A stretch of DNA of 39,044 nucleotides from a virus, in IMG/VR virus record IMGVR_UViG_3300034069_000599, positions 1 through 39,044 of that record; one strand, written 5' to 3'. The position numbers and the translations under genes were made by a program. The notes below the pieces were generated by a model. It was not told where the DNA came from, ran no database searches, and saw nothing but the letters and a program-made list of their open reading frames with translations. Of the stretch, positions 6,885 through 37,743 are shown one piece after another (within the stretch, counting starts at the first letter, position 1; every line of letters begins with the position of its first letter).

Positions 6885-7571
6885 TTGCGCTACGCAGGCG
6901 GCAACCGCGTAGTGGGCAGTCCGGTAGCCCGCCTGAAAAGGAACGCGGCCCTGTCTTTTATCGGCGATGCAATTGGCTCAATTACCGGGGGCATCCTCGG
7001 GACCAAGCAGGCTGCCAAGGGCGCGCAACAGGCAGCGCAGACCCAATCCACCGCCGCCGAGAAAGCGATTGCCGAACAGCGATCGGCGCGGCTCAATGCT
7101 CAGGCGTTGGAGCAGCCTTTCATTGACGCTGGCGGAAAGTCGCTGGCGCAGCAGATGTCGCTTCTCGGGCTGAACGGCACGGCGGACCAGCAGACGGCGA
7201 TCAGCGCCTTGCTCTCCTCTCCGCAATACACCTCGGCGACCCAACAGGGCGAAGAGGCAATCCTGCAAAATGCGGCGGCTACGGGCGGCTTGCGAGGCGG
7301 CAACACGCAAAACAGCCTCGCGCGGTTCAGGTCAGACCTCCTTGGCAGCACGATCAACGATCAGCTCGCCCGGCTAAATACAGTCACATCCATCGGTCAG
7401 AACGCGGCGGCGGGAACCGGCAACAACGCGCTGGCGTCGGCTAACAGTGTAAGCAGTCTGTTGAACCAGCAGGGCGCGGCGCTGGCGGGCGGTCAGTTGG
7501 CGAAGGGGAACCAGGTGACAAGCGCGCTCAACGCAGGACTTCAACTCGCTGGCGCCGTGGCGGCGTTCTGA
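6885..7571 (+). CDS. Internal virion (ejection) protein, gp7-sized
   Basis: 228 aa, Ala/Gln/Gly-rich and low complexity, with a hydrophobic C-terminal end. Position matches P22 gene 7 (229 aa). Start is uncertain: TTG 6885 or GTG 6912. Confidence 0.5.
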   Translation: MRYAGGNRVVGSPVARLKRNAALSFIGDAIGSITGGILGTKQAAKGAQQAAQTQSTAAEKAIAEQRSARLNAQALEQPFIDAGGKSLAQQMSLLGLNGTADQQTAISALLSSPQYTSATQQGEEAILQNAAATGGLRGGNTQNSLARFRSDLLGSTINDQLARLNTVTSIGQNAAAGTGNNALASANSVSSLLNQQGAALAGGQLAKGNQVTSALNAGLQLAGAVAAF

Positions 7572-23575: not shown

Positions 23576-24398
23576 GGGGAGTGTCCTTCAGGGCAGCGCG
23601 GTCCAAGCGCTCAATCTCGGCGACGATCAGCGCGCCAGCTTTGACGAGGCTGCGGCGAGCATCAGACGGCTTGAACCACTTCGGTTCCCACGGCCAAAAG
23701 CCGATGGGATCAGCAGCAAAGTAGCTTCCTTCCGTCGCAGCCGCGAAAGCATAGGCGCCCGCAGCGGCGGCAATCTCCCCGTTGCCGTGCTGGTCGTCGT
23801 GATCTGGTATCCAGCCCTCATCACTGATTTGACGCTGCCGTTCATGCGCGATGTCACAAATTGCCCGCCCCTCATCCGCTAGGGGAGCGGCTTGGGTGAT
23901 CGGGAGGGCGCGGATGCGATCAGCCACGGTCTGGCAAGCATCAATCCACATCGGTTCTGCGGCTTCGTCACGGCAAGCCTCTCCTTCCGCCACCTTCGCA
24001 GCCGCCTCCCGCATAGCTGCTGCGTCTGTGGGGGCTTGGGTCGCGGGGGCGGCGGTGTTGATTGCGTGAACGATTGCCTCCACAATGGCTTCGTCCTCGT
24101 CCGACGAAACGAACATGTCGAGCGCTTCACAGGCTGCGGCCATCTGTTTGGGAGACAACCCGCGCGGCACGACCACCGTCTCCCCTGCCGCTTCGGTAGC
24201 GCGCTCGGTGGTGAGGCGGTGGCGGGCGAAGGCTTGAGCCGTAGGGCCTGCGTCCCACTCGCCGCTTCTCAGTTCGGCTATGCGTTGCCGCTCGAATGGG
24301 GTCAGACTATCACCGCTAAGAAGTAGAAAGTCAGCTGCCGCATCACGATCCGCCTGCGTCACTACGGCAGCTTCACGGTTCTGGGTGGGGTCGGTCAT
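23565..24398 (-). CDS. Hypothetical protein (277 aa) with a conserved phage C-terminal domain
   Basis: ATGA overlap. The C-terminal block HDDQHGNGEIAAAAGAYA...WPWEPKWFKPSDARRSLVKAGALIVAEIERLDR looks like a recurrent phage domain that I cannot name. Confidence 0.7.
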   Translation of the reverse strand: MTDPTQNREAAVVTQADRDAAADFLLLSGDSLTPFERQRIAELRSGEWDAGPTAQAFARHRLTTERATEAAGETVVVPRGLSPKQMAAACEALDMFVSSDEDEAIVEAIVHAINTAAPATQAPTDAAAMREAAAKVAEGEACRDEAAEPMWIDACQTVADRIRALPITQAAPLADEGRAICDIAHERQRQISDEGWIPDHDDQHGNGEIAAAAGAYAFAAATEGSYFAADPIGFWPWEPKWFKPSDARRSLVKAGALIVAEIERLDRAALKDTPHAG

Positions 24399-25102
24399 GA
24401 CCGCACCTCCGCATCCGCTGCCAACACCGCTTCCGGATCAGCAGACCCGAACAGCGGCAGGAAGAAAAACGGCTGCCCGCGTTCGCGCATCACTCGCGCG
24501 CCCATGATTTCAGCCGTTGCACCCCCGGCGGCGTCCCTGGCGGCGTTCCAGGCGGCGTTCCAGGCGGCGTCCCTGGCGGCGTCCCTGGCGGCGTCCCTGG
24601 CGGCGTCCCAGGCGGCGTCCCTGGCGGCGTCCCAGGCGGCGTTCCAGGCGGCGTCCCAGGCGGCGTTCCAGGCGGCGTCCCTGGCGGCGTTCCAAGCGGC
24701 GTTCCACTGCTCTACAGTCATTCGGTCAAGGTGACGCCAGAACGCCAGAATGACCGCAGCCTGATCGCCGATCACCTGTTCGGGGTTGGTCAGGACGATT
24801 GCCGGCGCTCCCTCGGTGCTGTCGTTGACATTTCGCAGCAGGATCGCGTGAGCCCTGCTGATACCGAGCAAGTCAGCAACGGCGCGATCGGCCTTGCTCT
24901 GATCGGCAGCGTTAAGCTGTTTCGCCGTCCATCCGCCTAGAAGATGCAGCGCTTGGCCTTGAGCGCACATACAGCCGATGTTGCCCGGGTCGGCCTCATA
25001 AGCCGGCAGGTCGACAAGCTTTCCCTTATAGGGATGGCCTTCCGGCGATTGCCAGCGGGCGATCAGGTCGTCAATTGTCGTGATTTGTTGAGTAGCGGTC
25101 AT
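24395..25102 (-). CDS. Protein (235 aa) with a C-terminal array of 15 tetrapeptide repeats (AAW[ND]/AARD)
   Basis: GGAGG lies upstream of ATG 25102 (MTATQQITT...), with an ATGA overlap with the upstream gene. The repeats are encoded by 24527-24706. The ORF-track 303-aa version has a junk N-terminus. Confidence 0.7.
   Translation of the reverse strand: MTATQQITTIDDLIARWQSPEGHPYKGKLVDLPAYEADPGNIGCMCAQGQALHLLGGWTAKQLNAADQSKADRAVADLLGISRAHAILLRNVNDSTEGAPAIVLTNPEQVIGDQAAVILAFWRHLDRMTVEQWNAAWNAARDAAWNAAWDAAWNAAWDAARDAAWDAARDAARDAARDAAWNAAWNAARDAAGGATAEIMGARVMRERGQPFFFLPLFGSADPEAVLAADAEVRS
24527..24706. repeat. 15 tandem copies of a 12-bp unit (GGCGGCGTYCCW), in frame within CDS 24395-25102
   Basis: Counted directly. 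Units differ only at 2-3 positions, giving codon sets for W/R and D/N. Confidence 0.95.
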
Positions 25103-25299
25103 GCAGGCCTCCGTAGATCGGCGAGGGCGCGGGTAAGGTCCATGCTGGCGCGGCGGATGGCACCCTGCTCTCGGGGGAAATTGTCGTGCGTGAAATTGTG
25201 CCCGCCAGACACATACGGGCTCGGCTCGGGCAGCTTTTTCACGCGCATAATAAATCGCTCGGCCTCCGCCACGGCGACGGCAAGTTTGTCGCGGTTCAT
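25099..25299 (-). CDS. Hypothetical protein (66 aa)
   Basis: GAGGTG lies upstream of ATG 25299. ATGA overlap with the downstream gene. Confidence 0.55.
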   Translation of the reverse strand: MNRDKLAVAVAEAERFIMRVKKLPEPSPYVSGGHNFTHDNFPREQGAIRRASMDLTRALADLRRPA

Positions 25300-25360
25300 G
25301 CTTCACCTCGGGCTTGGCTGGCGCGCAGGGCGACAGGCGGATTGAATGATTGAGTAGCGG

Positions 25361-28044: not shown

Positions 28045-28247
28045 TTGCCCGCCTCCCCGTCGATCAGAAACCGCTCAACCACCGCCGGGCGATGAAACGC
28101 CGACGCAATGGCGGCATAGGCGTTACGGGTGCCGGCTTGGTTGGCCTCGCTGACCTTGAAACGCATGCCCTCCGCTTGTGCGCGGGCTTCGGCGTAGCTC
28201 GGGTCCGGCTTGCGGGCGTGAAAGGCGGTGATGGGCTGGTGTGGCAT
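28041..28247 (-). CDS. Hypothetical protein (68 aa)
   Basis: ATG 28247 shares its A with the upstream TGA. GTG 28250 is an alternative start. Confidence 0.55.
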   Translation of the reverse strand: MPHQPITAFHARKPDPSYAEARAQAEGMRFKVSEANQAGTRNAYAAIASAFHRPAVVERFLIDGEAGK

Positions 28248-29221
28248 CACGCGGCTTCCACCAGCTTGCCGGCGTTAGCCACATACCAAGTGCTGGCCTG
28301 CACACCGTCACGCCCGACGATGCCAGCGGCAACCGAGATGATGTTGTGGTCGTCATCGCGCTCAACAGCGAACAGCGCATTGCCATCGGCGCCCATGACC
28401 TTGCCGGCATAGCCGGACGACATGGCCGCGCCTTGCCGGCCCGTGGCCGATGCCGCGCCTTGCCGGCCCGTGGCCGATGCCGCGCCTTGCTCGCCCGTGG
28501 CCGATGCCGCGCCCCGCGTGCCCGTGGCCAATGCCGCGCCCCGCGTGCCCGTGGCCGATGCCGCGCCTTGCGTACCCGTGGCCGATGCCGCGCCTTGCCA
28601 GCCCGTGGCCAATGCCGCGCCTTGCCAGCCCGTGGCCAATGCCGCGCCTTGCCAGCCCGTGGCCAATGCCGCGCCTCGCTCGCCCGTGGCCAATGCCGCG
28701 CCTTGCTCGCCCGTGGCCGATGCCGCGCCCCGCGTGCCCGTGGCCGATGCCGCGCCCCGCGTGCCCGTGGCCGATGCCGCGCCTTGCCAGCCCGTGGCCG
28801 ATGCCGCGCCTTGATCAATCGTTACGTGCGCGTCATCCGACTTGGTTGCGCGCGACCAAACATAGTCCCACGCGCGCTTGACCAGCTCGCCGAGCGAGAC
28901 CTCAAGCTCAATCGTGATGGTAGCCGACGCGATCTTGATGTCGTCGTCGCTGTCAGTCGCGCCCGCCTGAACCACGTCGTGAAACCGTGAACCCGCCGGC
29001 GCGTAATAGCCAAACACCGACAACGGATGCGCGTCGCGCGTGCATGCGTGAAAGCCGCTGCGGCAAGCCTTGACCGGACCGTCCAGAGTGTAGGTCTGGC
29101 CCGCCGCGAACTGATAGCCCCGACACGTCAGGTCCGAGTTGAAGCCTTTAATGCTATGGACGATTGCCGGGGCTGAGCCCGCCTCCCCCGCCCGTTTACT
29201 CGCTTCCGCCGCTGTCACCAC
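28247..29221 (-). CDS. First gene of the early-left operon. The N-domain resembles DUF7666, followed by about 15 nonapeptide repeats (xxGAA[SL]ATG) and a C-terminal domain.
   Basis: GGAG lies 7 nt before GTG 29221. N-terminal [20 protein letters not shown]...CRSGFHAC. The repeats are encoded by 28425-28812. The C-terminus ends ...[22 protein letters not shown]. Confidence 0.75.
28425..28812. repeat. About 14.4 tandem copies of a 27-bp unit (GCCGCGCCTTGCCGGCCCGTGGCCGAT and variants), in frame within CDS 28247-29221
   Basis: Counted directly: 14 full units over 28425-28802 plus a partial unit. Variation is concentrated in the two codons preceding GAA[SL]ATG and in the S/L codon. Confidence 0.95.
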
Positions 29222-29955: not shown

Positions 29956-30077
29956 TCGCCGGCACCCTTGTCAGCGCAGCGGCAGCGCTGGTGATCGTCA
30001 ATGCATTGCGTTTCGGTGGTCACGAGGTCGGTGCGTGTGCACTCGCGTCGCAAGATAAATGGGACAAGCGTAGATGA
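29952..30077 (+). CDS. Small membrane protein (41 aa)
   Basis: GTGA start overlap and ATGA stop overlap. Contains VIAGTLVSAAAALVIVNALRF. Confidence 0.4.
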   Translation: MIAGTLVSAAAALVIVNALRFGGHEVGACALASQDKWDKRR

Positions 30078-30688
30078 ACCGGACTTGCACCACCTGCCCG
30101 CGCGAACTGGGTCCGAGGAATAAAAGCGGCCTCTGCCGGTCCTGCATCGCCAAGCGTAACAACGCCTCGCCCGAACTTCAGCAGCGTCGCAAGGACGCAA
30201 TCACCGCCTTTCACGCCGATCCGACCGTCAAGGCCGGCTATCGGGAGCGCATGCGGGTCCGGAACCGCGACCTGTCCGACGCCGAGCGCGAGAAGCGCCG
30301 GGAACATGGTCGCCGGCAGTATCGCGACGTCCTGAGCCGCCCTGACATACAGTCGCGCACACAGTCGGCGGAGGCACGGGCCAAGCGCGGTGCGGCTGTC
30401 AGTGCCGCGGCCTATCGCGACATTCCGGAAGGCCAGCGCGACGAGGTGAGGCGGCTTGTTCGCGGTGGCATGGCAACGGCTGCCGAGGCTCGCGCTATAG
30501 TCGCGGAGGCTGTTGCACTTGAGAAGCGCCGGGCTCTAACGGCTGAGCGCGAGCGTCTAGCCGCGCTGCCGCTGGTGGAACGCCAGCTCGAACGCGTTCG
30601 CAATGGTGCCACGGTTAGTGACAAGCCCGACCTGCGTCCGGCGGGGCATGCCTACACCTTGGGCGGTGTCGCTTCGGGGCAGTTGTGA
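30074..30688 (+). CDS. Hypothetical protein (204 aa) with an N-terminal CxxC...CxxC zinc-ribbon-like motif
   Basis: MNRTCTTCPRELGPRNKSGLCRSC, followed by a highly charged Arg/Glu-rich helical region. Confidence 0.7.
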   Translation: MNRTCTTCPRELGPRNKSGLCRSCIAKRNNASPELQQRRKDAITAFHADPTVKAGYRERMRVRNRDLSDAEREKRREHGRRQYRDVLSRPDIQSRTQSAEARAKRGAAVSAAAYRDIPEGQRDEVRRLVRGGMATAAEARAIVAEAVALEKRRALTAERERLAALPLVERQLERVRNGATVSDKPDLRPAGHAYTLGGVASGQL

Positions 30689-31337: not shown

Positions 31338-31498
31338 TCCGGCTACTCGCGCTGCTTTGGTCGGGATGTTGGCACAAATGGGTGATCCATCGCGAGGGCG
31401 TGTATAACTCGACGCGAGGAGGCATAATCGTTGAAAAGAAATACTTTTATGACCTTCGGTGCCAACGTTGCGGGAGAATGAAAGGTAAGGTGCTATGA
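31334..31498 (+). CDS. Small Cys-rich protein (54 aa)
   Basis: GTGA and ATGA overlaps. Contains ...GCWHKW...CQRCGRM. Confidence 0.5.
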   Translation: MIRLLALLWSGCWHKWVIHREGVYNSTRGGIIVEKKYFYDLRCQRCGRMKGKVL

Positions 31499-31830
31499 AC
31501 GCTCCCGCTCACCTCCCCCGTCCAATCGCAATGGACGAAAGCTCGCATGAAGCCGCGCACCGCCACGCGATCAGCATCCATTGTCCGAACCAGGACGAGA
31601 TGCAGATGGCTGCGCGAGTGGACATCGCGATCATGCGAGATGCGGCCAGCGTTGGGCTTGCAAGGGTTTGTGAAGCTGCAGCACCGTTGCTTCAACAGGT
31701 GTCAACGGTCGCTGCGAAGGTGGTGTATGCGCAGGTCAGCGCGCGCGACCTGATGCTGGCCCGATCGGCCCTCGCTATCACCATGGAAGCGGCGCGCGCG
31801 ATGGAGCGGGCATTTCGAGATGAGCGATGA
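31495..31830 (+). CDS. Hypothetical protein (111 aa)
   Basis: ATGA overlap. High GC3. Confidence 0.6.
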   Translation: MNAPAHLPRPIAMDESSHEAAHRHAISIHCPNQDEMQMAARVDIAIMRDAASVGLARVCEAAAPLLQQVSTVAAKVVYAQVSARDLMLARSALAITMEAARAMERAFRDER

Positions 31831-33466
31831 CATGAATGATGCTGGCGAGGTCCCCGCTTATCTGAACGAGGACCCTGGTTGGACGGAGGAGGAGGCGGCA
31901 AACGTCATTCCGTTTCGTCAAGCCAAAGGTGCCGAGGGCAAGGCAGCCGCACGCCCGGACCTTCCAGTCATTACGTTGGAAGCCGGTGAACTGCACAACA
32001 TTGCCACGGCCGGCGAGAATGCGTTGATCGGCTCCGATACGCCATTCTACGTACGCGGCGGGCGTCTGATGCGGCCGGTAGTCGATGACATGCCTGCATC
32101 GCACGGCCGGCGTACAAAGGTTGCGAGGTTGGAAGAAGTTACGGGCGCTGTCATGGTCGACCGGCTCTCGCGATCAGCGCTGTGGTTGAAATGGGATGGT
32201 CGCGCAAAGAAGCATGTGCCCGCCGATCCTAAGCCGGAAGTTGCGTCCACGATCCTATCCCGCGACGGCGAATGGCGTTTCCCGAGACTGTCCGGAGTCA
32301 TAACGACGCCCACGCTCCGTCCGGATGGCACGGTGCTGATCGAGCCGGGTTACGACCCTGCTACGCAGCTTTTGTTGCTTGACCCCCCGGCGATGCATCC
32401 GATCACCCCACGACCCGGCAAGAAACAGGCATTGTCCGCGCTCGCGTTTTTGGATGGGTTGCTAGACGAGTTTCCGTTTGTCGACGATGCAAGCCGGTCG
32501 GTTGCCTTATCGGCGCTTATCACCCCGGTTGTTCGTGGTGCCATTTCAGTAGCGCCAATGCACGTCACGAAAGCGCCGGTTGCCGGATCGGGGAAAAGCT
32601 ACATCATCGAACTCGCGTCCGCGATCAACAGCGGCGAGCGCGCCCCCGTTCTGAGCGCCGGCAAAAGCGAAGAGGAAATGGAAAAGCGGCTCGTTGGCGC
32701 GCTTTTATCCGGTCAGACGTTCATCTCGCTCGACAACGTGAATGGCGAGCTAGGTGGTGACTTCCTTTGCCAGGTGATTGAACGCCCTGTTGTGGCGGCG
32801 CGCCCTTTGGGGCAGTCGGCATTTGTCAAGATAGAGAGCCGCGCGACCTGCTTCGCTACCGGCAACAACATTCGCCTCGTCGGCGACATGACGCGCCGCG
32901 TCATCGTCTGCTCCTTAGACCCGGATATGGAACGACCTGAGCTTCGCGAGTTCAAGGGCGATCCGTTCGACACGGTAATGCAGGATCGCGGCAAATACGT
33001 ATCGGCAGCGCTGACGATCGTGCGCGCATATGTCGTCGCCGGCTTCCCCGACCAGTTGCCGCCGCTCGCGTCATTCGAGGAGTGGAGCAAGTTCGTCCGG
33101 TCGGCTCTCGTATGGCTAGGACGGCCCGACCCGATCGAAACGATGGAAAAGGCACGTGCCGACGATCCCATCAAAACGGCGCTCAGCAACCTCTACGCCG
33201 CCTGGTACGCGGCCGTGCAGAGCCAAGCGCAGACCACCGGCGAAATCGCCACTGTTGCGGCATCGCGCATGTTCGAAAGCCTCGCGCATCCGGCCCTCAA
33301 CGACGCCCTAATGGACATTGCTGAGGATCGTCGCGGAGGTATTTCGACCAAAACCCTAGGCCGCTACCTTGCCACGCACAAAGACCGAGTGGTCGATGGT
33401 CTCAAGATGGTCGAAGCCGGAAAAGACCGCACAAAGAAAGCCTTGTGGAAGGTTGTTTGTATATGA
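31820..33466 (+). CDS. P-loop NTPase, phage/plasmid primase-helicase-like replication protein
   Basis: Walker A KAPVAGSGKS, and a Walker B-like TFISLDNV. At 548 aa its size and layout resemble P4/D5-type (SF3) primase C-terminal helicases. It is the last early-right gene and lies next to the iteron region. Confidence 0.6.
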   Translation: MSDDMNDAGEVPAYLNEDPGWTEEEAANVIPFRQAKGAEGKAAARPDLPVITLEAGELHNIATAGENALIGSDTPFYVRGGRLMRPVVDDMPASHGRRTKVARLEEVTGAVMVDRLSRSALWLKWDGRAKKHVPADPKPEVASTILSRDGEWRFPRLSGVITTPTLRPDGTVLIEPGYDPATQLLLLDPPAMHPITPRPGKKQALSALAFLDGLLDEFPFVDDASRSVALSALITPVVRGAISVAPMHVTKAPVAGSGKSYIIELASAINSGERAPVLSAGKSEEEMEKRLVGALLSGQTFISLDNVNGELGGDFLCQVIERPVVAARPLGQSAFVKIESRATCFATGNNIRLVGDMTRRVIVCSLDPDMERPELREFKGDPFDTVMQDRGKYVSAALTIVRAYVVAGFPDQLPPLASFEEWSKFVRSALVWLGRPDPIETMEKARADDPIKTALSNLYAAWYAAVQSQAQTTGEIATVAASRMFESLAHPALNDALMDIAEDRRGGISTKTLGRYLATHKDRVVDGLKMVEAGKDRTKKALWKVVCI

Positions 33467-33479
33467 CCTTTGGTCTTTA

Positions 33480-33506
33480 TGCAGGATTTGCAGGATTTGC
33501 AGGATT
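33480..33506. repeat. Three perfect tandem 9-bp iterons (TGCAGGATT x3), forming the left arm of an inverted iteron array
   Basis: Read directly. 33480-33504 is the exact reverse complement of 33568-33592. Confidence 0.95.
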
Positions 33507-33565
33507 AGTTTCAGCCACGTGTGTGAAAATGCCACGTGCATAATTGGGAGGTACGAGGTGAAAGC

Positions 33566-33592
33566 CTTCCTGCAAATCCTGCAAATCCTGCA
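33566..33592. repeat. Inverted iterons (cTTCCTGCA, AATCCTGCA, AATCCTGCA), forming the right arm
   Basis: 25 of 25 bases complementary to the left arm. The 63-bp spacer carries GCCACGTG twice (33514-33521 and 33531-33538) and a CATAAT -10-like hexamer (33539-33544). Confidence 0.95.
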
Positions 33593-33619
33593 CGCGGCCT
33601 CACCCCTTTCATCGTCGCC

Positions 33620-33742
33620 ATGATCCGCACCCCGGCCGATGCGCTTGTCAAGGCGGACCCGGTGAAGCTGGCGGCGAAGTATGCGATTCCGGTAGAGTGG
33701 GCTCGGTTCTACATTTCGAGCTGGATTAGGAGCGGGTGTTGA
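33620..33742 (+). CDS. Small hypothetical protein (40 aa) just upstream of terS
   Basis: GC3 rises from about 33595. Translation: MIRTPADALVKADPVKLAAKYAIPVEWARFYISSWIRSGC. Start uncertain: the ORF track begins the same frame at GTG 33536, inside the iteron spacer. Confidence 0.35.
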   Translation: MIRTPADALVKADPVKLAAKYAIPVEWARFYISSWIRSGC

Positions 33743-34218
33743 AGATGGCCGGTGAGCAATGTATGGGTGACGGCATGGGGCGTCACTCTACCTTTACTAA
33801 GGAAATTGCAGACGAAATCTGCGATCGTATAAGCTCGGGTGAGCCATTGGCGCAGATCTGTCGCGACGAGTATATGCCGGCGCTTCGGACGGTTTATGAC
33901 TGGCAAGTGGCTGACGAAGAGTTTTCCGCTGGGATCGCGCGCGCGAGGGAAGCCGGATTTGATCAAATCGCGATGGACGCTCTGCACATTGCCGACGACA
34001 ATGGCCGTGATACCAGGCTGATCGGGCCCGAGGGTGCTGAGCGAGAGGCTCCCGATCATGAGTGGATTAGCCGTTCAAAGCTGCGTGTTGAAACTAGGCT
34101 GAAGCTTCTCGCGAAGTGGGACCCCAAGCGGTACGGCGAGCGTCAACTTGTCGGCTCTGATCCCGACAATCCGCTTCCGGCCGGGGTGCATGTTACCTTC
34201 GGGCGCGTGAAGACGTGA
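33736..34218 (+). CDS. terS: Terminase small subunit
   Basis: GRHSTFTKEIADEICDRISSGEPLAQICRDEYMPALRTVYDWQVADEEFSAGIARAREAGFD...SKLRVETRLKLLAKWDPKRYGE matches the widespread HTH-type TerS pattern (GRPskyt.e.a..Ic..i.eG.sl..iC ... R ... f ... AR ... r ... KW.l.k..PkkYG). Start is ambiguous among GTG 33736, ATG 33745 and ATG 33775. Confidence 0.8.
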   Translation: MLKMAGEQCMGDGMGRHSTFTKEIADEICDRISSGEPLAQICRDEYMPALRTVYDWQVADEEFSAGIARAREAGFDQIAMDALHIADDNGRDTRLIGPEGAEREAPDHEWISRSKLRVETRLKLLAKWDPKRYGERQLVGSDPDNPLPAGVHVTFGRVKT

Positions 34219-35441
34219 TCGTCAACACCGAACTCGGGCCATGGGCTGAGGCGCTATTCGAGCCGAGCCGGTTCAAGGCGATATGGGGCGGGCGAGGCGG
34301 CGGGAAGTCACGATCGGTCGCCAAAGCGCTTGTTCTGAAAGCGCTGCAAGGCCCGGAGAGGGTTCTATGCGCGCGTGAGGTGCAGAAAAGCATCAAGGAT
34401 AGTTCGAAGCGTCTGCTGGATGATGAAATCCGGCGAATGGGGGTCGAGTCGTTTTTCGACAGCACCGAAACCGAGATACGCGGCCGCAATGGATCGTTGT
34501 TCATCTTCGCCGGTTTGCGAGGCAACGCCAACCAGATCAAATCACTTGAGGGCGTGACACTCGCTTGGGTGGACGAAGCGCAGGTTATTACTCAGGCTTC
34601 CTTGGATACCCTGATACCGACTATCCGCGCGCCTAGTTCGGAAGTCTGGTTGACCTGGAATCCGCTCAAAGCCGACGATCCCGTGGACGCGCTCTTTCGT
34701 GGCGTTTCGCCCCCGCCGGGCTCGCGAGTGATTGAAGTTCAGCATGACGATAATCCATGGTTCCCGGACGAGTTGCGGGTGCAAATGGAATGGCAACGCG
34801 AACGGGATTACGACAAGTACCTGCACATTTGGCGAGGTGCGTACTGGCGGAACAGTGAAGCGCAGGTGTTCAGGAACTGGCGCATTGGCGCTGAGGTGGA
34901 TTTCGAGGGGGCGGCAGTCGCGGAGTATCGCTTCGGTGCGGATTTCGGCTACAGCATCGATCCGTCCTGCCTGATTCGCTGCTACCTGCGAGGCCAGACC
35001 CTGTACGTCGATTATGAGGCATACATGGTTGGGTGCGAAATTGAGCAACTCCCGCAACTCTTTGGTCGTGTTCCTGGGTCGTCCGATTGGCCCTTGACCT
35101 GCGATAGCAGCCGCCCGGAAACGATTAGCTACCTACGCCGAAACGGCTTTTCCAAGGTCCGGCCGAGCGTGAAGGGTGCGGGTTCGGTTGAAGAGGGCGT
35201 AGCCTTTTTGCAGGCGTATGACATCGTTGTTCATCCGCGATGCACGCATGTTGCGGACGAGCTGGCGACCTACAGCTATAAGCTCGACAAGCTTACCGGG
35301 GAGCCGACGCCGGTTTTGGAAGACAAGAATAACCATTTGATGGATGCTTTGCGCTACGCCTTGGAAGGTGTAAGGCGGGTGAAGGCAAAGCCCACATCGG
35401 TAAGTGTCGTCGTGCCGAGGATGGTTGGAGGATTCCGGTAA
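34215..35441 (+). CDS. terL: Terminase large subunit (ATPase plus nuclease)
   Basis: Walker A WGGRGGGKS near the N-terminus. Walker B-like LAWVDEAQ. GTGA overlap with terS. Followed by the portal gene. Confidence 0.9.
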   Translation: MIVNTELGPWAEALFEPSRFKAIWGGRGGGKSRSVAKALVLKALQGPERVLCAREVQKSIKDSSKRLLDDEIRRMGVESFFDSTETEIRGRNGSLFIFAGLRGNANQIKSLEGVTLAWVDEAQVITQASLDTLIPTIRAPSSEVWLTWNPLKADDPVDALFRGVSPPPGSRVIEVQHDDNPWFPDELRVQMEWQRERDYDKYLHIWRGAYWRNSEAQVFRNWRIGAEVDFEGAAVAEYRFGADFGYSIDPSCLIRCYLRGQTLYVDYEAYMVGCEIEQLPQLFGRVPGSSDWPLTCDSSRPETISYLRRNGFSKVRPSVKGAGSVEEGVAFLQAYDIVVHPRCTHVADELATYSYKLDKLTGEPTPVLEDKNNHLMDALRYALEGVRRVKAKPTSVSVVVPRMVGGFR

Positions 35442-35457
35442 TGAGCGTGGGATCGGC

Positions 35458-37743
35458 ATGAACGACGGTATCGCGGAATCCGGCACTAGCCGCAAGAGCA
35501 AGGCGGATCGCAACGCCAAGGTTCATGAAGACGCGATGCGCCTGTTCGATGCGATCTGGGCTGTCGAGGCTCCGCAGCGAGAGCAGAACATCCGCGATCG
35601 GCGCTTGGCCCGCATACGTGGCGCATGGTGGGAAGGCCAACTCGCGTTCGGCGAAGCCGTCGATGAATACGGCAACCCCGTCGACACCGGTGCGCCGCGC
35701 TTGGAAATCCCGAAGTTTCTTCGCGCTTCCCGGCGCATCAAGGGTGAATACCGATCCAGTCGCAAGATGGTCGACTTCAAACCCAAGGGTGAGGACAGCG
35801 ACAAGGCCAGCGCGAACAATCTCGACGGACTGTATCGCGCTGACCTCAACGACAGTCCAGGCGGATTCGGCGCGGCGCAGGACAACGCTTTTGACGAGGG
35901 CATTGACGGCGGTATCGGTGGCTGGCGTTTGCGCGCTCGGTACGACGACGAGACGGACGAGAAAAACGAACAGCAGCGCATTGAGTTCGTACCGGTCCAT
36001 GATGCGGACATGTCCATGTTCTTTGATCTTGGCGCGCGGCGACAGGATAAGAGCGATGCGCGCCACGGATTCTTGCTGTTTCGCATGAGCCGCGAGGCAT
36101 TCGAAGCAGAGTATCCGGAAGCCTCCGCTTCCACATTCGACAAGGCCGCGCTCCCTTGGTCCTATGACTGGACACGGCAGGACGACATTACGCTGGCGGA
36201 ATATTTCCGTGTTGATGAACGATCAATTCTGCGACGCACGTTCCGGCAGACGGCGCTTGATGCTGCTGAGCTGCCGGAGGGCATAGAGGCGGACGAGCAG
36301 ACGCACGATGACGCCGACTTACGCGCCAATGACGGCAAACTGGAAAGCGACCTTCACGACAAGGGTTACGTCCAGGTTCGGTCGCGACGCATCAAGCGCC
36401 CCCGCGTGGTCAAGTATGTGCTGAGCGGGACGGAATGCCTAGAAGGTCCGGAAACACTGCCGGGTCGGTATGTTCCACTGATCCCCTATTATGCCGAACG
36501 CACGGTGATTGAGGGCATTGAACGAACGCAGGGGATCATCCGACCAGGTATCGACGCGGGCCGGCTGTATAACCTGATGGCGAGCAATCTTGCCGAGACG
36601 GCTGCGGCACCTGCGGACGAAACGCCCATTGTCTCGCCTGATCAGGTCGATGGCCCGATCCTGTTGTCATGGGCTCGTCGTAAGGTCGACCGCCCGGCGG
36701 TGCTGGTGTTGAAGGATGTGTACGCAGAGGACGGGTCCATACTGCGGTCTGGCCTCGCCGGCGTGGTTAACGTCCCTCAGGTCGCCCCCGCCACCGCTGC
36801 ACTTATCCAGATGGCAGGCACCGACATTCCCGACATCATGGGGCTGAACGAGCAGCCTGCTACGGTGCCCGCGAACACATCGGCGGCGGCGATCCAGCTT
36901 GTCAACGACCGTGGCGACGTGGCCGATTTCGTGTGGCGCGACAATTTCGAACAAGCCTTGGCGCACGATGGCCGGGTGTGGTTGAGCATGGCGCAGGATC
37001 TCTATGTCGAGGAGGGCCGCAAGATGACGACGGTAAGCCCGGAGGGTAAGCAATCCACGATTACGCTTGCCGAGCGCCAAGCCGATGACGAGGGCTCGCG
37101 AATCGCAAACGATCTGACGACGGGTCGGTACGATGTGATCGTGGATGTTGGCCCGGCAACGAAAACTCGGCGGGACGCGACGGTGAAGAACTGCCTCGCC
37201 ATCGGCCAGGTAGCGCAAGGGTCGGCTGATCCGTCCATGGCCCCGATTGCCGCCGCCATGCTGGGCACGGCCATTCTGAACATGGAAGGCGAGGGTATTG
37301 AGGGCCCGCAAGCGTTGGTGCGCAAGGTGGGCTTGCAACAAGGGTGGGTGGAGCCGACCGAGGAAGAGGCTGCGCAACTCGCGGCACAACAGGCGGCTCA
37401 GGGCGAGCAGCAGGACCCGAACCTGATCGCGGCCAATGCGCAGATGCTGCTAGCGCAAGCCGAAGAAATGAAGGCGCGTACCGGCTTGATCGCCGAGGAG
37501 ACGCGGCGGATCACGGCGGAAGCCAACGCCGAGAAAGCCCGCGCGGAGACGGCCGCGGCACTGGCGGGGATTGACCGAAAGGATCGTGAACAGGTGCTTG
37601 ACGAGGTTAAGCAGGCGGTGGAGCAGGGCCGGGCGGACGAGCGCGACGACCACGGCCAGCGGATGGATGTGATTGACCGAACGATGAGCGCGGAAAGGCA
37701 TGATGCCGATATGACGGGAGGCGCCTATGGCAACGCAGTTTGA
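35458..37743 (+). CDS. Portal protein, P22 gp1-like with a long C-terminal helical barrel region
   Basis: GIGGWRLRARYDDE vs recalled P22 GVGAWRLVTDYEDQ, DKSDARHGFLLF vs DKSDARHCTVIH, RRIKRPRVVKYVLSG vs RQIKRRRVYKSIITC, and GRYDVIVDVGP vs GRYECYTDVGP. The C-terminus is Ala/Gln/Glu-rich. In-frame upstream alternative start at 35404. Confidence 0.93.
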   Translation: MNDGIAESGTSRKSKADRNAKVHEDAMRLFDAIWAVEAPQREQNIRDRRLARIRGAWWEGQLAFGEAVDEYGNPVDTGAPRLEIPKFLRASRRIKGEYRSSRKMVDFKPKGEDSDKASANNLDGLYRADLNDSPGGFGAAQDNAFDEGIDGGIGGWRLRARYDDETDEKNEQQRIEFVPVHDADMSMFFDLGARRQDKSDARHGFLLFRMSREAFEAEYPEASASTFDKAALPWSYDWTRQDDITLAEYFRVDERSILRRTFRQTALDAAELPEGIEADEQTHDDADLRANDGKLESDLHDKGYVQVRSRRIKRPRVVKYVLSGTECLEGPETLPGRYVPLIPYYAERTVIEGIERTQGIIRPGIDAGRLYNLMASNLAETAAAPADETPIVSPDQVDGPILLSWARRKVDRPAVLVLKDVYAEDGSILRSGLAGVVNVPQVAPATAALIQMAGTDIPDIMGLNEQPATVPANTSAAAIQLVNDRGDVADFVWRDNFEQALAHDGRVWLSMAQDLYVEEGRKMTTVSPEGKQSTITLAERQADDEGSRIANDLTTGRYDVIVDVGPATKTRRDATVKNCLAIGQVAQGSADPSMAPIAAAMLGTAILNMEGEGIEGPQALVRKVGLQQGWVEPTEEEAAQLAAQQAAQGEQQDPNLIAANAQMLLAQAEEMKARTGLIAEETRRITAEANAEKARAETAAALAGIDRKDREQVLDEVKQAVEQGRADERDDHGQRMDVIDRTMSAERHDADMTGGAYGNAV

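What the first reader, a model, noticed from the sequence alone, without database searches (positions are those of the whole stretch)
33480..33592. Perfect 25-bp inverted array of 9-bp iterons flanking a CACGTG-containing spacer, between the helicase gene and terS
TGCAGGATT is repeated three times in tandem (33480-33506). An inverted array lies at 33566-33592, with two perfect copies and one 7-of-9 copy. Together they give a 25 of 25 inverted repeat around a 63-bp spacer. The spacer holds GCCACGTG twice, 17 bp apart, an A-rich patch (GTGAAAAT) and a CATAAT -10-like hexamer with no -35. GGGAGG and a GTG follow. This is the most ordered non-coding element in the genome. It sits exactly at the early-to-late boundary, 14 bp after the primase/helicase-like gene. 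The candidate roles are:
- an iteron-type replication origin served by the adjacent helicase;
- an activator- or repressor-controlled late promoter whose operators can loop or form a cruciform;
- a packaging (pac) recognition site for the adjacent TerS.

The binding protein is unknown.
Basis: partly seen in the sequence, partly recalled or inferred. Interest (0 to 1): 0.7.

Follow-up and report, generated by a model that had tools for sequence, protein, structure and literature searches.

The report
Phage replication origin beside its helicase
The repeat element is most likely the phage's replication origin, where the C-terminal domain of the helicase encoded just upstream binds two opposed sets of 9-bp repeats; this design is already known from staphylococcal pathogenicity islands, here found in an uncharacterised helicase family.

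Summary
TGCAGGATT occurs three times at 33480-33506. Three inverted copies lie at 33566-33592, giving a 25/25 inverted repeat. It starts 13 nt after the stop codon of a 548-aa gene, in the lowest-GC 160-bp stretch of the window.

The same architecture follows homologues of that gene in many uncultured phages and prophage-like elements. A strict detector found it in 51 of 69 loci and in 0 of 547 control segments. The repeat unit differs between lineages.

In close relatives the unit tracks only the last ~100 residues of the upstream protein. It does not track the protein's core, any other phage protein, or the terminase. The downstream gene varies: TerS, SSB or small unknown ORFs.

The protein has Walker motifs and a predicted fold closest to D5/SF3-type primase-helicases.

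Best reading: an origin for a self-loading initiator helicase, working like the SaPI rep-ori module. The pac-site reading is contradicted. A late promoter is unsupported but not excluded. The CATAAT, the GGGAGG-GTG and the second GCCACGTG are not conserved; CAGCCACGTG is. This is a new member of a known kind and rests on computation only.

The parts
31820..33466 (+). Gene for the 548-aa putative initiator helicase. It has a P-loop (Walker A VAGSGKS, Walker B FISLDNV) and a D5/SF3-like predicted fold.
   Evidence: Translation. No Pfam, NCBIfam or PDB sequence hit. phrog_29234 and phrog_19930 'DNA polymerase/primase' match. More than 5000 homologues; longer ones carry N-terminal Prim-Pol, PriCT_2 or RepB-primase domains. 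The AF2 model's best PDB fold hits are ASFV PrimPol, phage NrS-1 C-terminal region and vaccinia D5 (E 1.4e-4 to 3e-3); SaPI5 Pri-Rep is weak at E 0.07.
33170..33463 (+). Coding region for the C-terminal domain (aa ~451-548), the predicted iteron-recognition module.
   Evidence: The AF2 CTD model has pLDDT 92 and shows helices followed by a beta-hairpin 'wing'. This is the only part of any window protein whose identity tracks the iteron type: 76-79% in three same-iteron relatives, 40-52% in six others. Residues 1-450 are 72-87% identical in all nine. There is a mosaic breakpoint against L118 near 33150-33200. Foldseek found no significant PDB match for the isolated domain.
33480..33506 (+). Left iteron array: 3 x TGCAGGATT, head to tail, 9-bp period.
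   Evidence: The same position (0-21 nt after the stop codon) and three-fold phasing are seen in relatives with other units.
33507..33565 (.). 59-bp spacer, 49% GC in a 62% GC genome. It is the presumed melting and loading region.
   Evidence: Spacer length is conserved at 57-59 bp in seven of eight near relatives (66 bp in L125), with GC 0.34-0.53.
33512..33521 (+). Box A, CAGCCACGTG. It is a spacer motif conserved across lineages whose iterons differ.
   Evidence: CAGCSACGTG is present in 37 of 63 origin regions, at 2.80 per kb against 0.005 per kb elsewhere in the same loci. It is shared between the near clade and the Rhodobacteraceae clade, whose helicases are about 41% identical.
33531..33557 (+). 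Second GCCACGTG, then CATAATTGGGAGGTACGAGG. This is the window's diverged counterpart of the relatives' TGTCAG-GTGACAGTTT-GGGAGGTCAGGGG ('box B') region.
   Evidence: In alignment A2, the window's TGCATAATTGGGAGG aligns with GTGACAGTTTGGGAGG of L001, L122 and L123. GACAGTT is found in 38 of 63 origin regions. From the positions it lies about 29 nt before the right array in both clades. The second GCCACGTG, the CATAAT and the GTG are specific to the window.
33566..33592 (-). Right iteron array, inverted: TGCAGGATT, TGCAGGATT, TGCAGGAAG when read on the minus strand.
   Evidence: In the same-iteron relatives the right array is more degenerate (for example TGCAGGAAG / AGCAGGATT / TGAAGGATG in L001) while the left array stays near perfect.
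33536..33742 (+). Neighbour, not part of the origin: a small conserved ORF of unknown function. It reads ..LTPFIVAMIRTP..ADPVKLAAKY.. and its start is uncertain (GTG 33536 or ATG 33620).
   Evidence: Homologous ORFs start at an ATG just after the right array in L001/L117, L118 and L125. It is 42-59% identical whatever the iteron type and is absent from other relatives. It has no family match.

Best explanation
The element is the phage's replication origin, and the 548-aa helicase encoded immediately upstream is its initiator.

**Shown**
- Two opposed triplets of a 9-bp repeat flank a ~59-bp spacer that lies in the lowest-GC part of the genome. The element starts 13 nt after the helicase stop codon.
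- This architecture is conserved after homologous helicase genes in many lineages.
- The repeat unit differs between lineages. In close relatives it changes together with the last ~100 residues of the helicase and with nothing else.

**Inferred**
- The C-terminal domain of each helicase subunit binds one iteron.
- The two inverted arrays each nucleate one ring, and the rings face opposite ways.
- The spacer melts between them, and the helicase loads itself without a separate loader.
- Replication then proceeds in both directions. Priming would be by a primase not identified in this window, or by the host primase.
- Exchange of the CTD-plus-iteron cassette by recombination creates new replicon specificities.
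- The conserved spacer boxes (CAGCSACGTG, GACAGTTT) are common to lineages with different iterons. They are therefore more likely read by a conserved part of the machinery than by the variable domain.
For: 1. **Position.** The left array begins within 0-21 nt of the helicase stop codon in essentially every lineage that has the element.
2. **Conserved architecture.** A strict detector looked for a forward phased run followed by an inverted phased run. It was positive in 51 of 69 loci and in 0 of 547 random control segments from the same loci.
3. **Variable units.** TGCAGGATT (window, L001, L122, L123), TGCCGGGTT (L118), TGCGGGGTT (L120), TGCAGGGGT/A (L002, L124), TGCATACCC (L125), GCGGGTATA (L073), GTGGTTA (Myxococcus), TGGTGGGTT and GGTTAGGTT (Rhodobacteraceae), and more.
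4. **Natural swap.** The L118 protein is 95-100% identical to the window protein over aa 211-430 but 35-45% over aa 451-548, and it has a different iteron.
5. **Prediction test.** P0002 and P0004 were picked only because their CTD matched the window's. Both contigs carry TGCAGGATT. P0030, whose CTD matches L002's, carries TGCAGGGGA.
6. **Specificity of the covariation.** Among window proteins, only helicase aa 451-548 tracks the iteron type. Among 39 locus pairs with core identity >=0.78, 12 of 13 pairs with CTD identity >=0.70 share the unit, against 3 of 25 pairs with CTD identity <0.60.
7. **Protein type.** Walker A and B motifs; fusion to Prim-Pol and PriCT_2 in homologues; fold matches to D5, ASFV PrimPol and NrS-1 helicases.
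8. **Lowest-GC stretch of the window**.
9. **No other recognisable initiator** among the window ORFs that were scanned.
10. **Match to a published description.** The SaPI origin has iterons immediately downstream of rep, an AT-rich centre, at least two iterons on each side pointing in opposite directions, and a Rep C-terminal winged helix that binds them (PMC9371898).
Against: - Nothing here is experimental. No binding, melting or replication data exist.
- The isolated C-terminal domain has no significant structural match in the PDB (best E 0.07). 'Winged helix' therefore rests on secondary-structure topology alone.
- Across all 45 non-redundant loci, the partial correlation of iteron similarity with CTD identity, given core identity, is weak: r = 0.11, reached by 101 of 2000 permutations. 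Many diverged CTDs go with similar GCGGGTA-type units. The covariation is clear only among close relatives, and those pairs are not independent.
- No primase was recognised among the window ORFs scanned.
- The spacer is only relatively AT-rich, at 49% GC.
- In the window, and in the Rhodobacteraceae elements, the element also sits just upstream of the packaging genes. A second role there is not excluded.
Confidence: 0.75

Rival explanations
1. Operator-flanked late promoter. The iteron arrays are operators for a regulator, possibly the helicase itself. They control a promoter in the spacer that drives the small ORF, terS, terL and portal operon, either instead of or in addition to origin function.
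For: The element lies at the junction between the replication genes and the packaging genes in the window, in L120 and in the Rhodobacteraceae elements. The spacer holds conserved boxes of unknown role. Origins often overlap promoters (general knowledge).
Against: No sigma-70-like promoter was found in 33000-34200. The CATAAT hexamer and the GGGAGG-GTG are not conserved in relatives. In several relatives the next gene is not a late gene: SSB in L002, small unknown ORFs in L117, L118 and L123. No DNA-binding protein other than the helicase CTD covaries with the iterons.
Confidence: 0.1
2. Packaging recognition site (pac, or a cosB-like site). TerS binds the repeated units to start headful packaging.
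For: It lies 144 bp upstream of an Sf6-type terS. Repeat-containing TerS sites upstream of terS are known from lambda cosB and SPP1 pac (my own knowledge, not checked here).
Against: Three relatives with the same TGCAGGATT iterons (L117, L122, L123) showed no homologue of the window's TerS or TerL in the 2.5-4 kb of downstream DNA fetched. L122 has a Terminase_6-type large subunit instead. L125 has an 82%-identical TerL and a related TerS but TGCATACCC iterons. L118 and L119 use Terminase_2 / Terminase_6 several genes downstream. L002 has SSB next. The element is fixed to the helicase stop codon, not to terS.
Confidence: 0.03
3. Structural hairpin or cruciform. The 25-bp inverted repeat acts as a nucleic-acid structure, not as protein-binding repeats. 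It could be an RNA stem that ends or processes the early transcript, or a DNA cruciform.
For: There is strong predicted stem potential: -37.6 kcal/mol, z = -7.2. Both arms change together between lineages. The arms remain 21-25 of 27 complementary in near relatives.
Against: A stem does not need three tandem 9-bp units in each arm, yet that phasing is what is conserved. It does not explain covariation with a protein domain. Complementarity decays in relatives while the unit cores persist. Arm separation ranges from ~58 to ~130 bp between clades. No terminator-like site was found on the + strand. Rfam gives only sub-threshold miRNA-hairpin hits.
Confidence: 0.05
4. Helicase-binding array with a role other than replication, for example autoregulation of the early operon, or a copy-control or incompatibility site. 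The true origin would lie elsewhere.
For: Iteron arrays in plasmids also serve autoregulation and handcuffing (my own knowledge, not checked here). The covariation shows that the CTD and the iterons are linked, not what the binding achieves.
Against: No other iteron cluster and no comparable low-GC repeat element exists in the window. The opposed arrays around the lowest-GC stretch match an experimentally studied origin type (PMC9371898).
Confidence: 0.07

Closest known systems
SaPI (Staphylococcus aureus pathogenicity island) pri-rep-ori replicon, with Rep as a self-loading helicase
   Same: Iterons begin immediately downstream of the helicase/initiator ORF. Two sets point in opposite directions around a central, relatively AT-rich region. 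The initiator is an SF3/AAA+-type helicase whose C-terminal domain determines origin specificity. Homologues occur as separate or primase-fused proteins (PMC9371898 as read).
   Different: No detectable sequence homology to SaPI Rep, and only a weak fold hit to SaPI5 Pri-Rep (E 0.07). The units are 9 bp, contiguous and exactly three per side, not 5-6 bp in variable numbers. The spacer is 49% GC and carries deeply conserved boxes. No pri gene was recognised among the window ORFs scanned. The host is a complete P22-like-portal phage of a high-GC genome, not a satellite.
Satellite phage P4 alpha protein (primase-helicase) with ori and crr
   Same: A D5/SF3-type primase-helicase whose C-terminal DNA-binding domain recognises short repeated units at its own origin (my own knowledge, not checked here).
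   Different: From my own knowledge, P4 needs a second cis element (crr) carrying the same repeats some distance from ori. The window has no second cluster. The opposed 3+3 arrangement next to the gene is not the arrangement I recall for P4 ori.
SV40 large T antigen and papillomavirus E1 origins
   Same: SF3 helicase initiators that bind short repeats arranged in inverted orientation around a core. They assemble two oppositely oriented hexamers and melt flanking or central DNA themselves (my own knowledge, not checked here).
   Different: These are eukaryotic viruses. The origin-binding domain lies N-terminal to the helicase rather than C-terminal. There is no sequence relationship.
Lambda/P22-type phage origins and iteron plasmid origins (O protein, RepA, pi, TrfA)
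   Same: Repeated initiator-binding units lie next to a region of easier melting, and specificity is exchanged between relatives (my own knowledge, not checked here).
   Different: In lambda the iterons lie inside the initiator gene. The initiator is not a helicase and recruits the host DnaB through a loader. Plasmid iterons are mostly direct repeats of 17-22 bp. No O/P-, DnaB- or DnaC-like gene was found among the window ORFs scanned.

Membership tests
SaPI-type rep-ori module (self-loading initiator helicase with adjacent iteron origin) | Iterons immediately downstream of the initiator/helicase ORF | tested here: met
   First unit 13 nt after the stop codon in the window, and 0-21 nt in relatives that have the element.
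SaPI-type rep-ori module (self-loading initiator helicase with adjacent iteron origin) | At least two iterons on each side of a central AT-rich region, the two sides pointing in opposite directions | tested here: met
   3 + 3 inverted units. The spacer is 49% GC and the element is the lowest-GC 160 bp of a 62% GC window. It is AT-rich only in relative terms.
SaPI-type rep-ori module (self-loading initiator helicase with adjacent iteron origin) | Initiator is an SF3/AAA+ hexameric helicase | tested here: met
   Walker A and B motifs. AF2 model fold hits to ASFV PrimPol, NrS-1 C-terminal region and vaccinia D5 at E 1.4e-4 to 3e-3. The model's mean pLDDT is only 74 and the ATPase core is modelled poorly. 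Hexamer formation and helicase activity were not tested.
SaPI-type rep-ori module (self-loading initiator helicase with adjacent iteron origin) | C-terminal winged-helix domain that recognises the iterons | tested here: inconclusive
   A confident model (pLDDT 92) shows helices plus a beta-hairpin, but there is no significant PDB fold match. In close relatives the domain covaries with the iteron type. The family-wide correlation is weak.
SaPI-type rep-ori module (self-loading initiator helicase with adjacent iteron origin) | Homology to SaPI Rep proteins | tested here: not met
   No PDB sequence hit. SaPI5 Pri-Rep (7ola) appears only at Foldseek E 0.07. The resemblance is therefore one of mechanism and architecture, not demonstrated common family.
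SaPI-type rep-ori module (self-loading initiator helicase with adjacent iteron origin) | Cognate primase (a pri gene or a fused primase domain) | tested here: not met
   No primase domain in the 548-aa protein or among the window ORFs scanned. Homologues elsewhere carry fused Prim-Pol and PriCT_2.
SaPI-type rep-ori module (self-loading initiator helicase with adjacent iteron origin) | ATP-independent specific origin binding and melting; autonomous replication of rep + ori | not testable with these tools
   Needs EMSA or footprinting, permanganate probing and a plasmid replication assay.
P4 alpha / ori-crr replicon | A second cis-acting repeat cluster (crr) carrying the same units at a distance from ori | tested here: not met
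   The only other exact unit in the window is a single copy at 7259-7267 on the minus strand. There is no second cluster.
Terminase recognition site (pac / cosB) | Co-inheritance of the site with its TerS/terminase type | tested here: not met
   The same iterons occur with different or absent TerS/TerL homologues in the flank fetched. A similar TerL (82%) occurs with different iterons.
Intrinsic terminator or known structured RNA | G+C-rich short stem followed by a T run, or a match to an Rfam family at its gathering score | tested here: not met
   No + strand terminator-like site. Rfam gives only sub-threshold miRNA-precursor hits at 25-27 bits, against gathering scores of 50-80.

The most novel reading that the evidence does not exclude
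The window may exemplify a large, unnamed replicon family: more than 5000 homologues, no Pfam or NCBIfam model, and no cultured phage above 31% identity. It spans phages and ~16-20 kb integrase-bearing elements of Alphaproteobacteria, Myxococcota and Planctomycetota. In this reading, origin recognition has two tiers. First, a fast-evolving cassette of C-terminal domain plus 3+3 iterons can be exchanged by recombination and sets replicon specificity. Second, a deeply conserved spacer core is read by the conserved part of the machinery; it comprises CAGCSACGTG and a GACAGTTT box about 29 nt before the right array. The palindromic CACGTG presents GTG on both strands and might be a start signal for the Prim-Pol primase fused to many homologues, which would give symmetric bidirectional priming. 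That last step is speculation.
Probability: 0.35. Interest if true: 0.55.

Novelty: new member of a known kind. Interest (0 to 1): 0.4.

Why it matters
**A testable origin and initiator.** The finding gives a specific prediction for a phage whose replication genes have no family annotation.

**An annotation rule for the family.** The same rule applies to many uncultured relatives: look 0-21 nt after the stop codon of this helicase family for three phased units, then for three inverted units about 60-130 bp further on. That would let origins be annotated in many alphaproteobacterial, myxobacterial and planctomycete prophages and small integrative elements.

**A natural specificity series.** The CTD-iteron cassettes form a ready-made set of matched protein-DNA specificities. 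They could be used to study how such initiators read DNA, or to build compatible replicons for high-GC hosts.

**Limits.** The principle is not new. It repeats the SaPI, P4 and viral SF3 initiator designs.

Tried and rejected
- **Near-identity DNA search** of GenBank phages with 31800-35500 found nothing.
- **Protein search of GenBank phages** with the helicase gave only hits of 31% identity or less, all annotated 'hypothetical'.
- **Family and sequence searches on the 548-aa protein:** Pfam (even at E 10), NCBIfam and PDB sequence searches gave nothing.
- **Fold search with the isolated C-terminal domain** gave no significant match, so I do not claim a proven winged helix.
- **Literature search** for the repeat sequences, and for iteron origins in alphaproteobacterial prophages, found no description of this element.
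- **Family-wide correlation** of iteron similarity with CTD identity was weak: partial r = 0.11, reached by 101 of 2000 permutations. Many diverged CTDs share GCGGGTA-like units, and my similarity measure is crude. I therefore rest the covariation claim on close relatives and on the prediction test only.
- **Promoter scan** found no sigma-70-type site.
- **Rfam** gave only hairpin-shaped sub-threshold hits, which I treat as artefacts of the inverted repeat.
- **The 111-aa upstream ORF and the small downstream ORF** were considered as iteron binders. I rejected both because their identity to relatives does not follow the iteron type.
I rejected it because relatives keep GGGAGG or CAGGGG but have no start codon there.
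Full report
**1. The observation**

Reading 33300-33800 and running repeat finder confirm the description.
- TGCAGGATT occurs three times head to tail at 33480-33506.
- CTTCCTGCA, AATCCTGCA and AATCCTGCA lie at 33566-33592.
- Together they give a perfect 25-nt inverted repeat, 33480-33504 against 33568-33592.
- GCCACGTG lies at 33514 and 33531.

The element is more than chance would give.
- Five of the six exact copies of the unit in the 39-kb window lie here.
- It is the strongest inverted repeat in the window.
- Its two arrays are the only perfect non-coding tandem arrays of this size.
- It coincides with the lowest-GC 160 bp of the window: 44.4% against 62.1%, rank 1 of 38885.

Three details need correcting.
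- The gap after the upstream stop codon (33464-33466) is 13 nt.
- A small ORF (33536 or 33620 to 33742) lies between the element and terS.
- GCCACGTG as an 8-mer is not enriched in the window.

**2. Context**

Downstream lie an Sf6-type TerS (33736-34218), a Terminase_3 TerL (34215-35441) and a P22-type portal (35404-37743).

The upstream 548-aa ORF (31820-33466) has no Pfam, NCBIfam or PDB sequence match. It does have the following:
- Walker A (VAGSGKS) and Walker B (FISLDNV) motifs;
- matches to the C-terminal two thirds of PHROGs that include 'DNA polymerase/primase';
- more than 5000 homologues, mostly unnamed or called 'putative DNA primase/helicase' by JGI. The longer ones carry N-terminal Prim-Pol, PriCT_2 or RepB-primase domains. 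A Rhodobacteraceae homologue of 893 aa confirms this fusion.

An AlphaFold2 model (mean pLDDT 74) finds as best PDB folds the ASFV PrimPol, the phage NrS-1 helicase region and vaccinia D5 (E 1.4e-4 to 3e-3). SaPI5 Pri-Rep appears weakly at E 0.07. I therefore treat the protein as a D5/SF3-like helicase, on fold and motif evidence only.

The leftward operon holds YqaJ-type and AAA_24 recombination genes and a C5 methylase. No other initiator, DnaB/DnaC-like protein or primase was recognised among the ORFs I scanned.

**3. The element in relatives**

I fetched loci encoding relatives of the helicase from IMG/VR, GTDB genomes, metagenomes and individual contigs.

In the close clade (66-86% protein identity), the helicase stop codon is followed within 0-14 nt by three phased units. 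A spacer of 57-66 bp follows (measured in eight near-clade loci), then three inverted units. The unit differs:
- TGCAGGATT in the window, L001/L117, L122 and L123;
- TGCCGGGTT in L118 and L119;
- TGCGGGGTT in L120;
- TGCAGGGGT/A in L002 and L124;
- TGCATACCC in L125;
- a 10-bp AGCGGGTATA in Sphingomonas echinoides (L073).

More distant relatives show the same plan.
- At 47-50% identity, Myxococcus (L074) and Archangium (L075) have it with GTGGTTA-type and GCGGGG-type units.
- At ~41% identity, about sixty Rhodobacteraceae loci have TGGTGGGTT-type or GGTTAGGTT-type triplets, a longer spacer and inverted triplets.
- Pirellula loci (30%) carry several clusters of GCGAGGTTA in both orientations.
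- Two outliers showed nothing comparable: L114 (Nealsonbacteria) and L115 (Acidimicrobiia).

I applied a strict detector to the 260 bp after each stop codon. It was positive in 51 of 69 loci and in 0 of 547 random control segments of the same loci. Several of its misses, such as the mixed GGTTAGGTT/GGGTGGGTT arrays, are visible by eye.

**4. What the element travels with**

The gene after the element varies:
- Sf6-type TerS directly (L120);
- the small ORF and then TerS (window);
- the small ORF and then five or more small genes before a Terminase_2 / Terminase_6 pair (L118, L119);
- unrelated small genes (L117, L123);
- SSB and then an HNH nuclease (L002);
- an unknown gene and a lambda-type gpA terminase in the Rhodobacteraceae elements.

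I ran tblastn with every window protein of the region against nine close relatives.
- TerS and TerL homologues were not found in the downstream DNA fetched for the three relatives that share the window's iteron.
- L125 has an 82%-identical TerL but a different iteron.
- The 111-aa upstream ORF is 40-58% identical whatever the iteron.
- Helicase residues 1-450 are 72-87% identical in all nine.
- Only helicase residues 451-548 separate the two groups: 76-79% in the three same-iteron relatives, 40-52% in the other six.

The sharpest case is L118. It is 95-100% identical to the window protein over residues 211-430 but 35-45% over 451-548. The DNA identity drops from ~82% to 40-55% beginning near 33150-33200.

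I then made a prediction from protein sequence alone. P0002 and P0004 share the window's C-terminal sequence, P0030 shares L002's, and P0010 has a new one. Their contigs carry TGCAGGATT, TGCAGGATT, TGCAGGGGA and a new unit TGCATACCC respectively.

With the metagenome loci added, 39 locus pairs have core identity >=0.78. Of these, 12 of 13 pairs with CTD identity >=0.70 share the unit, against 3 of 25 pairs with CTD identity <0.60. These pairs are not independent.

Over all 45 non-redundant loci the partial correlation is weak: r = 0.11, reached by 101 of 2000 permutations. Many diverged C-terminal domains accompany similar GCGGGTA-type units, and my similarity measure is crude. The covariation is therefore solid among close relatives and unproven family-wide.

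**5. The C-terminal domain**

In both models the last ~80 residues form three helices followed by a two-stranded beta-hairpin, at pLDDT ~90. This is the order expected of a winged helix.

The positions that differ between specificity types cluster at three places (alignments):
- the start of the third helix (STKT, SSRS, NSRR, TPTK, SPTR);
- the end of that helix;
- the tip of the hairpin (GKDRTKKA, GKDRKDKT, GHDRDGKT, GKSRTDIV, GAARSGAK).

Foldseek found no significant PDB match for the isolated domain (best E 0.07). I therefore call the fold assignment inconclusive.

**6. Hairpin or binding sites**

The window's arms would form a strong stem as single-stranded DNA (z = -7.2). In relatives the arms are 21-25 of 27 complementary, so a structure is not excluded by complementarity alone.

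Three things point to protein-binding units instead.
- What is conserved is three-fold 9-bp (or 10-bp) phasing on each side.
- The left array is near perfect and the right array is degenerate in unit-wise fashion. In L001 the right array reads TGCAGGAAG, AGCAGGATT, TGAAGGATG.
- The unit covaries with a protein domain.

No + strand terminator-like site was found. Rfam gives only sub-threshold miRNA-hairpin hits.

**7. The spacer**

- Relatives read TGTCAG(G)TGACAGTTT..GGGAGGTCAGGGG there, with no start codon.
- No sigma-70-like promoter is found.

Two motifs are conserved.
- CAGCSACGTG, at 33512-33521 in the window, occurs in 37 of 63 origin regions. Its density is 2.80 per kb there against 0.005 per kb elsewhere in those loci.
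- GACAGTT occurs in 38 of 63. From the positions it lies about 29 nt before the right array in both the close clade and the Rhodobacteraceae clade.
- The window's CATAATT aligns to this second box and is a diverged copy.

These boxes persist across lineages whose iterons differ. I infer that they are read by something conserved, such as the helicase core, a primase or a host factor. Their role is unknown.

**8. Mechanism proposed**

Shown: the anatomy, its conservation, its linkage to the helicase gene, and its covariation with the helicase C-terminal domain in close relatives.

Inferred, by analogy with the SaPI Rep system as described in PMC9371898:
- C-terminal domains of the helicase bind the iterons;
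- the two inverted arrays each position one ring, and the rings face opposite ways;
- the low-GC spacer melts, and the helicase loads itself;
- replication starts bidirectionally.

The source of primers in this phage is unknown.

**9. Comparison and novelty**

The architecture matches the published SaPI origin feature for feature. It resembles, from my own knowledge, P4 alpha-ori and the SV40 and papillomavirus SF3 initiator origins.

It is not shown to be homologous to SaPI Rep. It lacks a recognised primase in the window, and it lacks the second cis element I recall for P4.

No paper in the searchable library describes it. No cultured phage in GenBank has a homologue above 31% identity, and all hits are annotated as hypothetical.

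I rate it a new member of a known kind.

**10. Verdict**

- Confidence 0.75 that this is the replication origin served by the adjacent helicase.
- pac site 0.03.
- Promoter or operator as the main role 0.10.
- Pure structural hairpin 0.05.
- Non-replicative helicase-binding array 0.07.
- Interest 0.4. This is a clean and widely applicable annotation rule with a natural specificity series, but the principle is established and all the evidence is computational.

Noticed in passing
window 28425-28813 (minus-strand ORF 28247-29221): A 27-bp unit repeated 14.4 times inside a 324-aa ORF that matches DUF7666 and collagen triple-helix repeats. It is a long coding tandem repeat, possibly a fibre-like protein, encoded in the leftward early region.
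   Followed up: partly
window 24523-24706 (minus-strand ORF 24395-25306): A 12-bp unit (CCCAGGCGGCGT) repeated 15.3 times at 90% match inside a 303-aa ORF with no Pfam family, which would encode a tetrapeptide repeat.
   Followed up: no
L092 1621-9243 and about 60 similar loci (L004-L038, L076-L104): Rhodobacteraceae carry conserved elements; the IMG/VR contigs that carry them are mostly about 15-20 kb. Their order is tyrosine integrase, small genes, an 893-aa Prim-Pol/PriCT_2/helicase fusion, the 3+3 iteron element, a 169-aa gene and a lambda-type gpA terminase. They look like small prophages or capsid-forming satellite-like islands. In them the origin-like element again sits just before the packaging genes, where a cos site might also be expected.
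   Followed up: partly
L028 around 4858: One relative appears to have lost the helicase C-terminus and the whole iteron element by a deletion between short repeats. The helicase reading frame runs straight into the sequence that normally follows the right array. This may be a replication-dead copy.
   Followed up: no
window 33536-33742; L117 5772-5957; L118 5705-5854; L125 4251-4400: A small conserved ORF (..LTPFIVAM..ADPxKLAAKY..) starts at an ATG right after the right array in relatives. In the window that ATG is missing. The ORF must start either at GTG 33536, reading through the right iteron array as LPANPANPA, or at the internal ATG 33620. Its function is unknown and it does not covary with the iterons.
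   Followed up: partly
L109, L110, L112 (Pirellula), 0-520 bp after the helicase stop: The planctomycete relatives do not have a simple 3+3 layout. They carry four or more clusters of GCGAGGTTA, in both orientations, spread over about 500 bp. This is a more complex version of the element.
   Followed up: no
window 31820-33466 and homologues P0001-P0120: This helicase family has more than 5000 detectable homologues but no Pfam or NCBIfam model. Every GenBank phage hit is annotated 'hypothetical protein' or, wrongly, 'PE-PGRS family protein' (Caulobacter jumbo phages).
   Followed up: partly
window 30074-30688 and 31495-31830: Two ORFs conserved in position, just upstream of the helicase, have no family match. 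The 111-aa ORF abuts the helicase start. One of them might supply the missing primase or a loader function.
   Followed up: no
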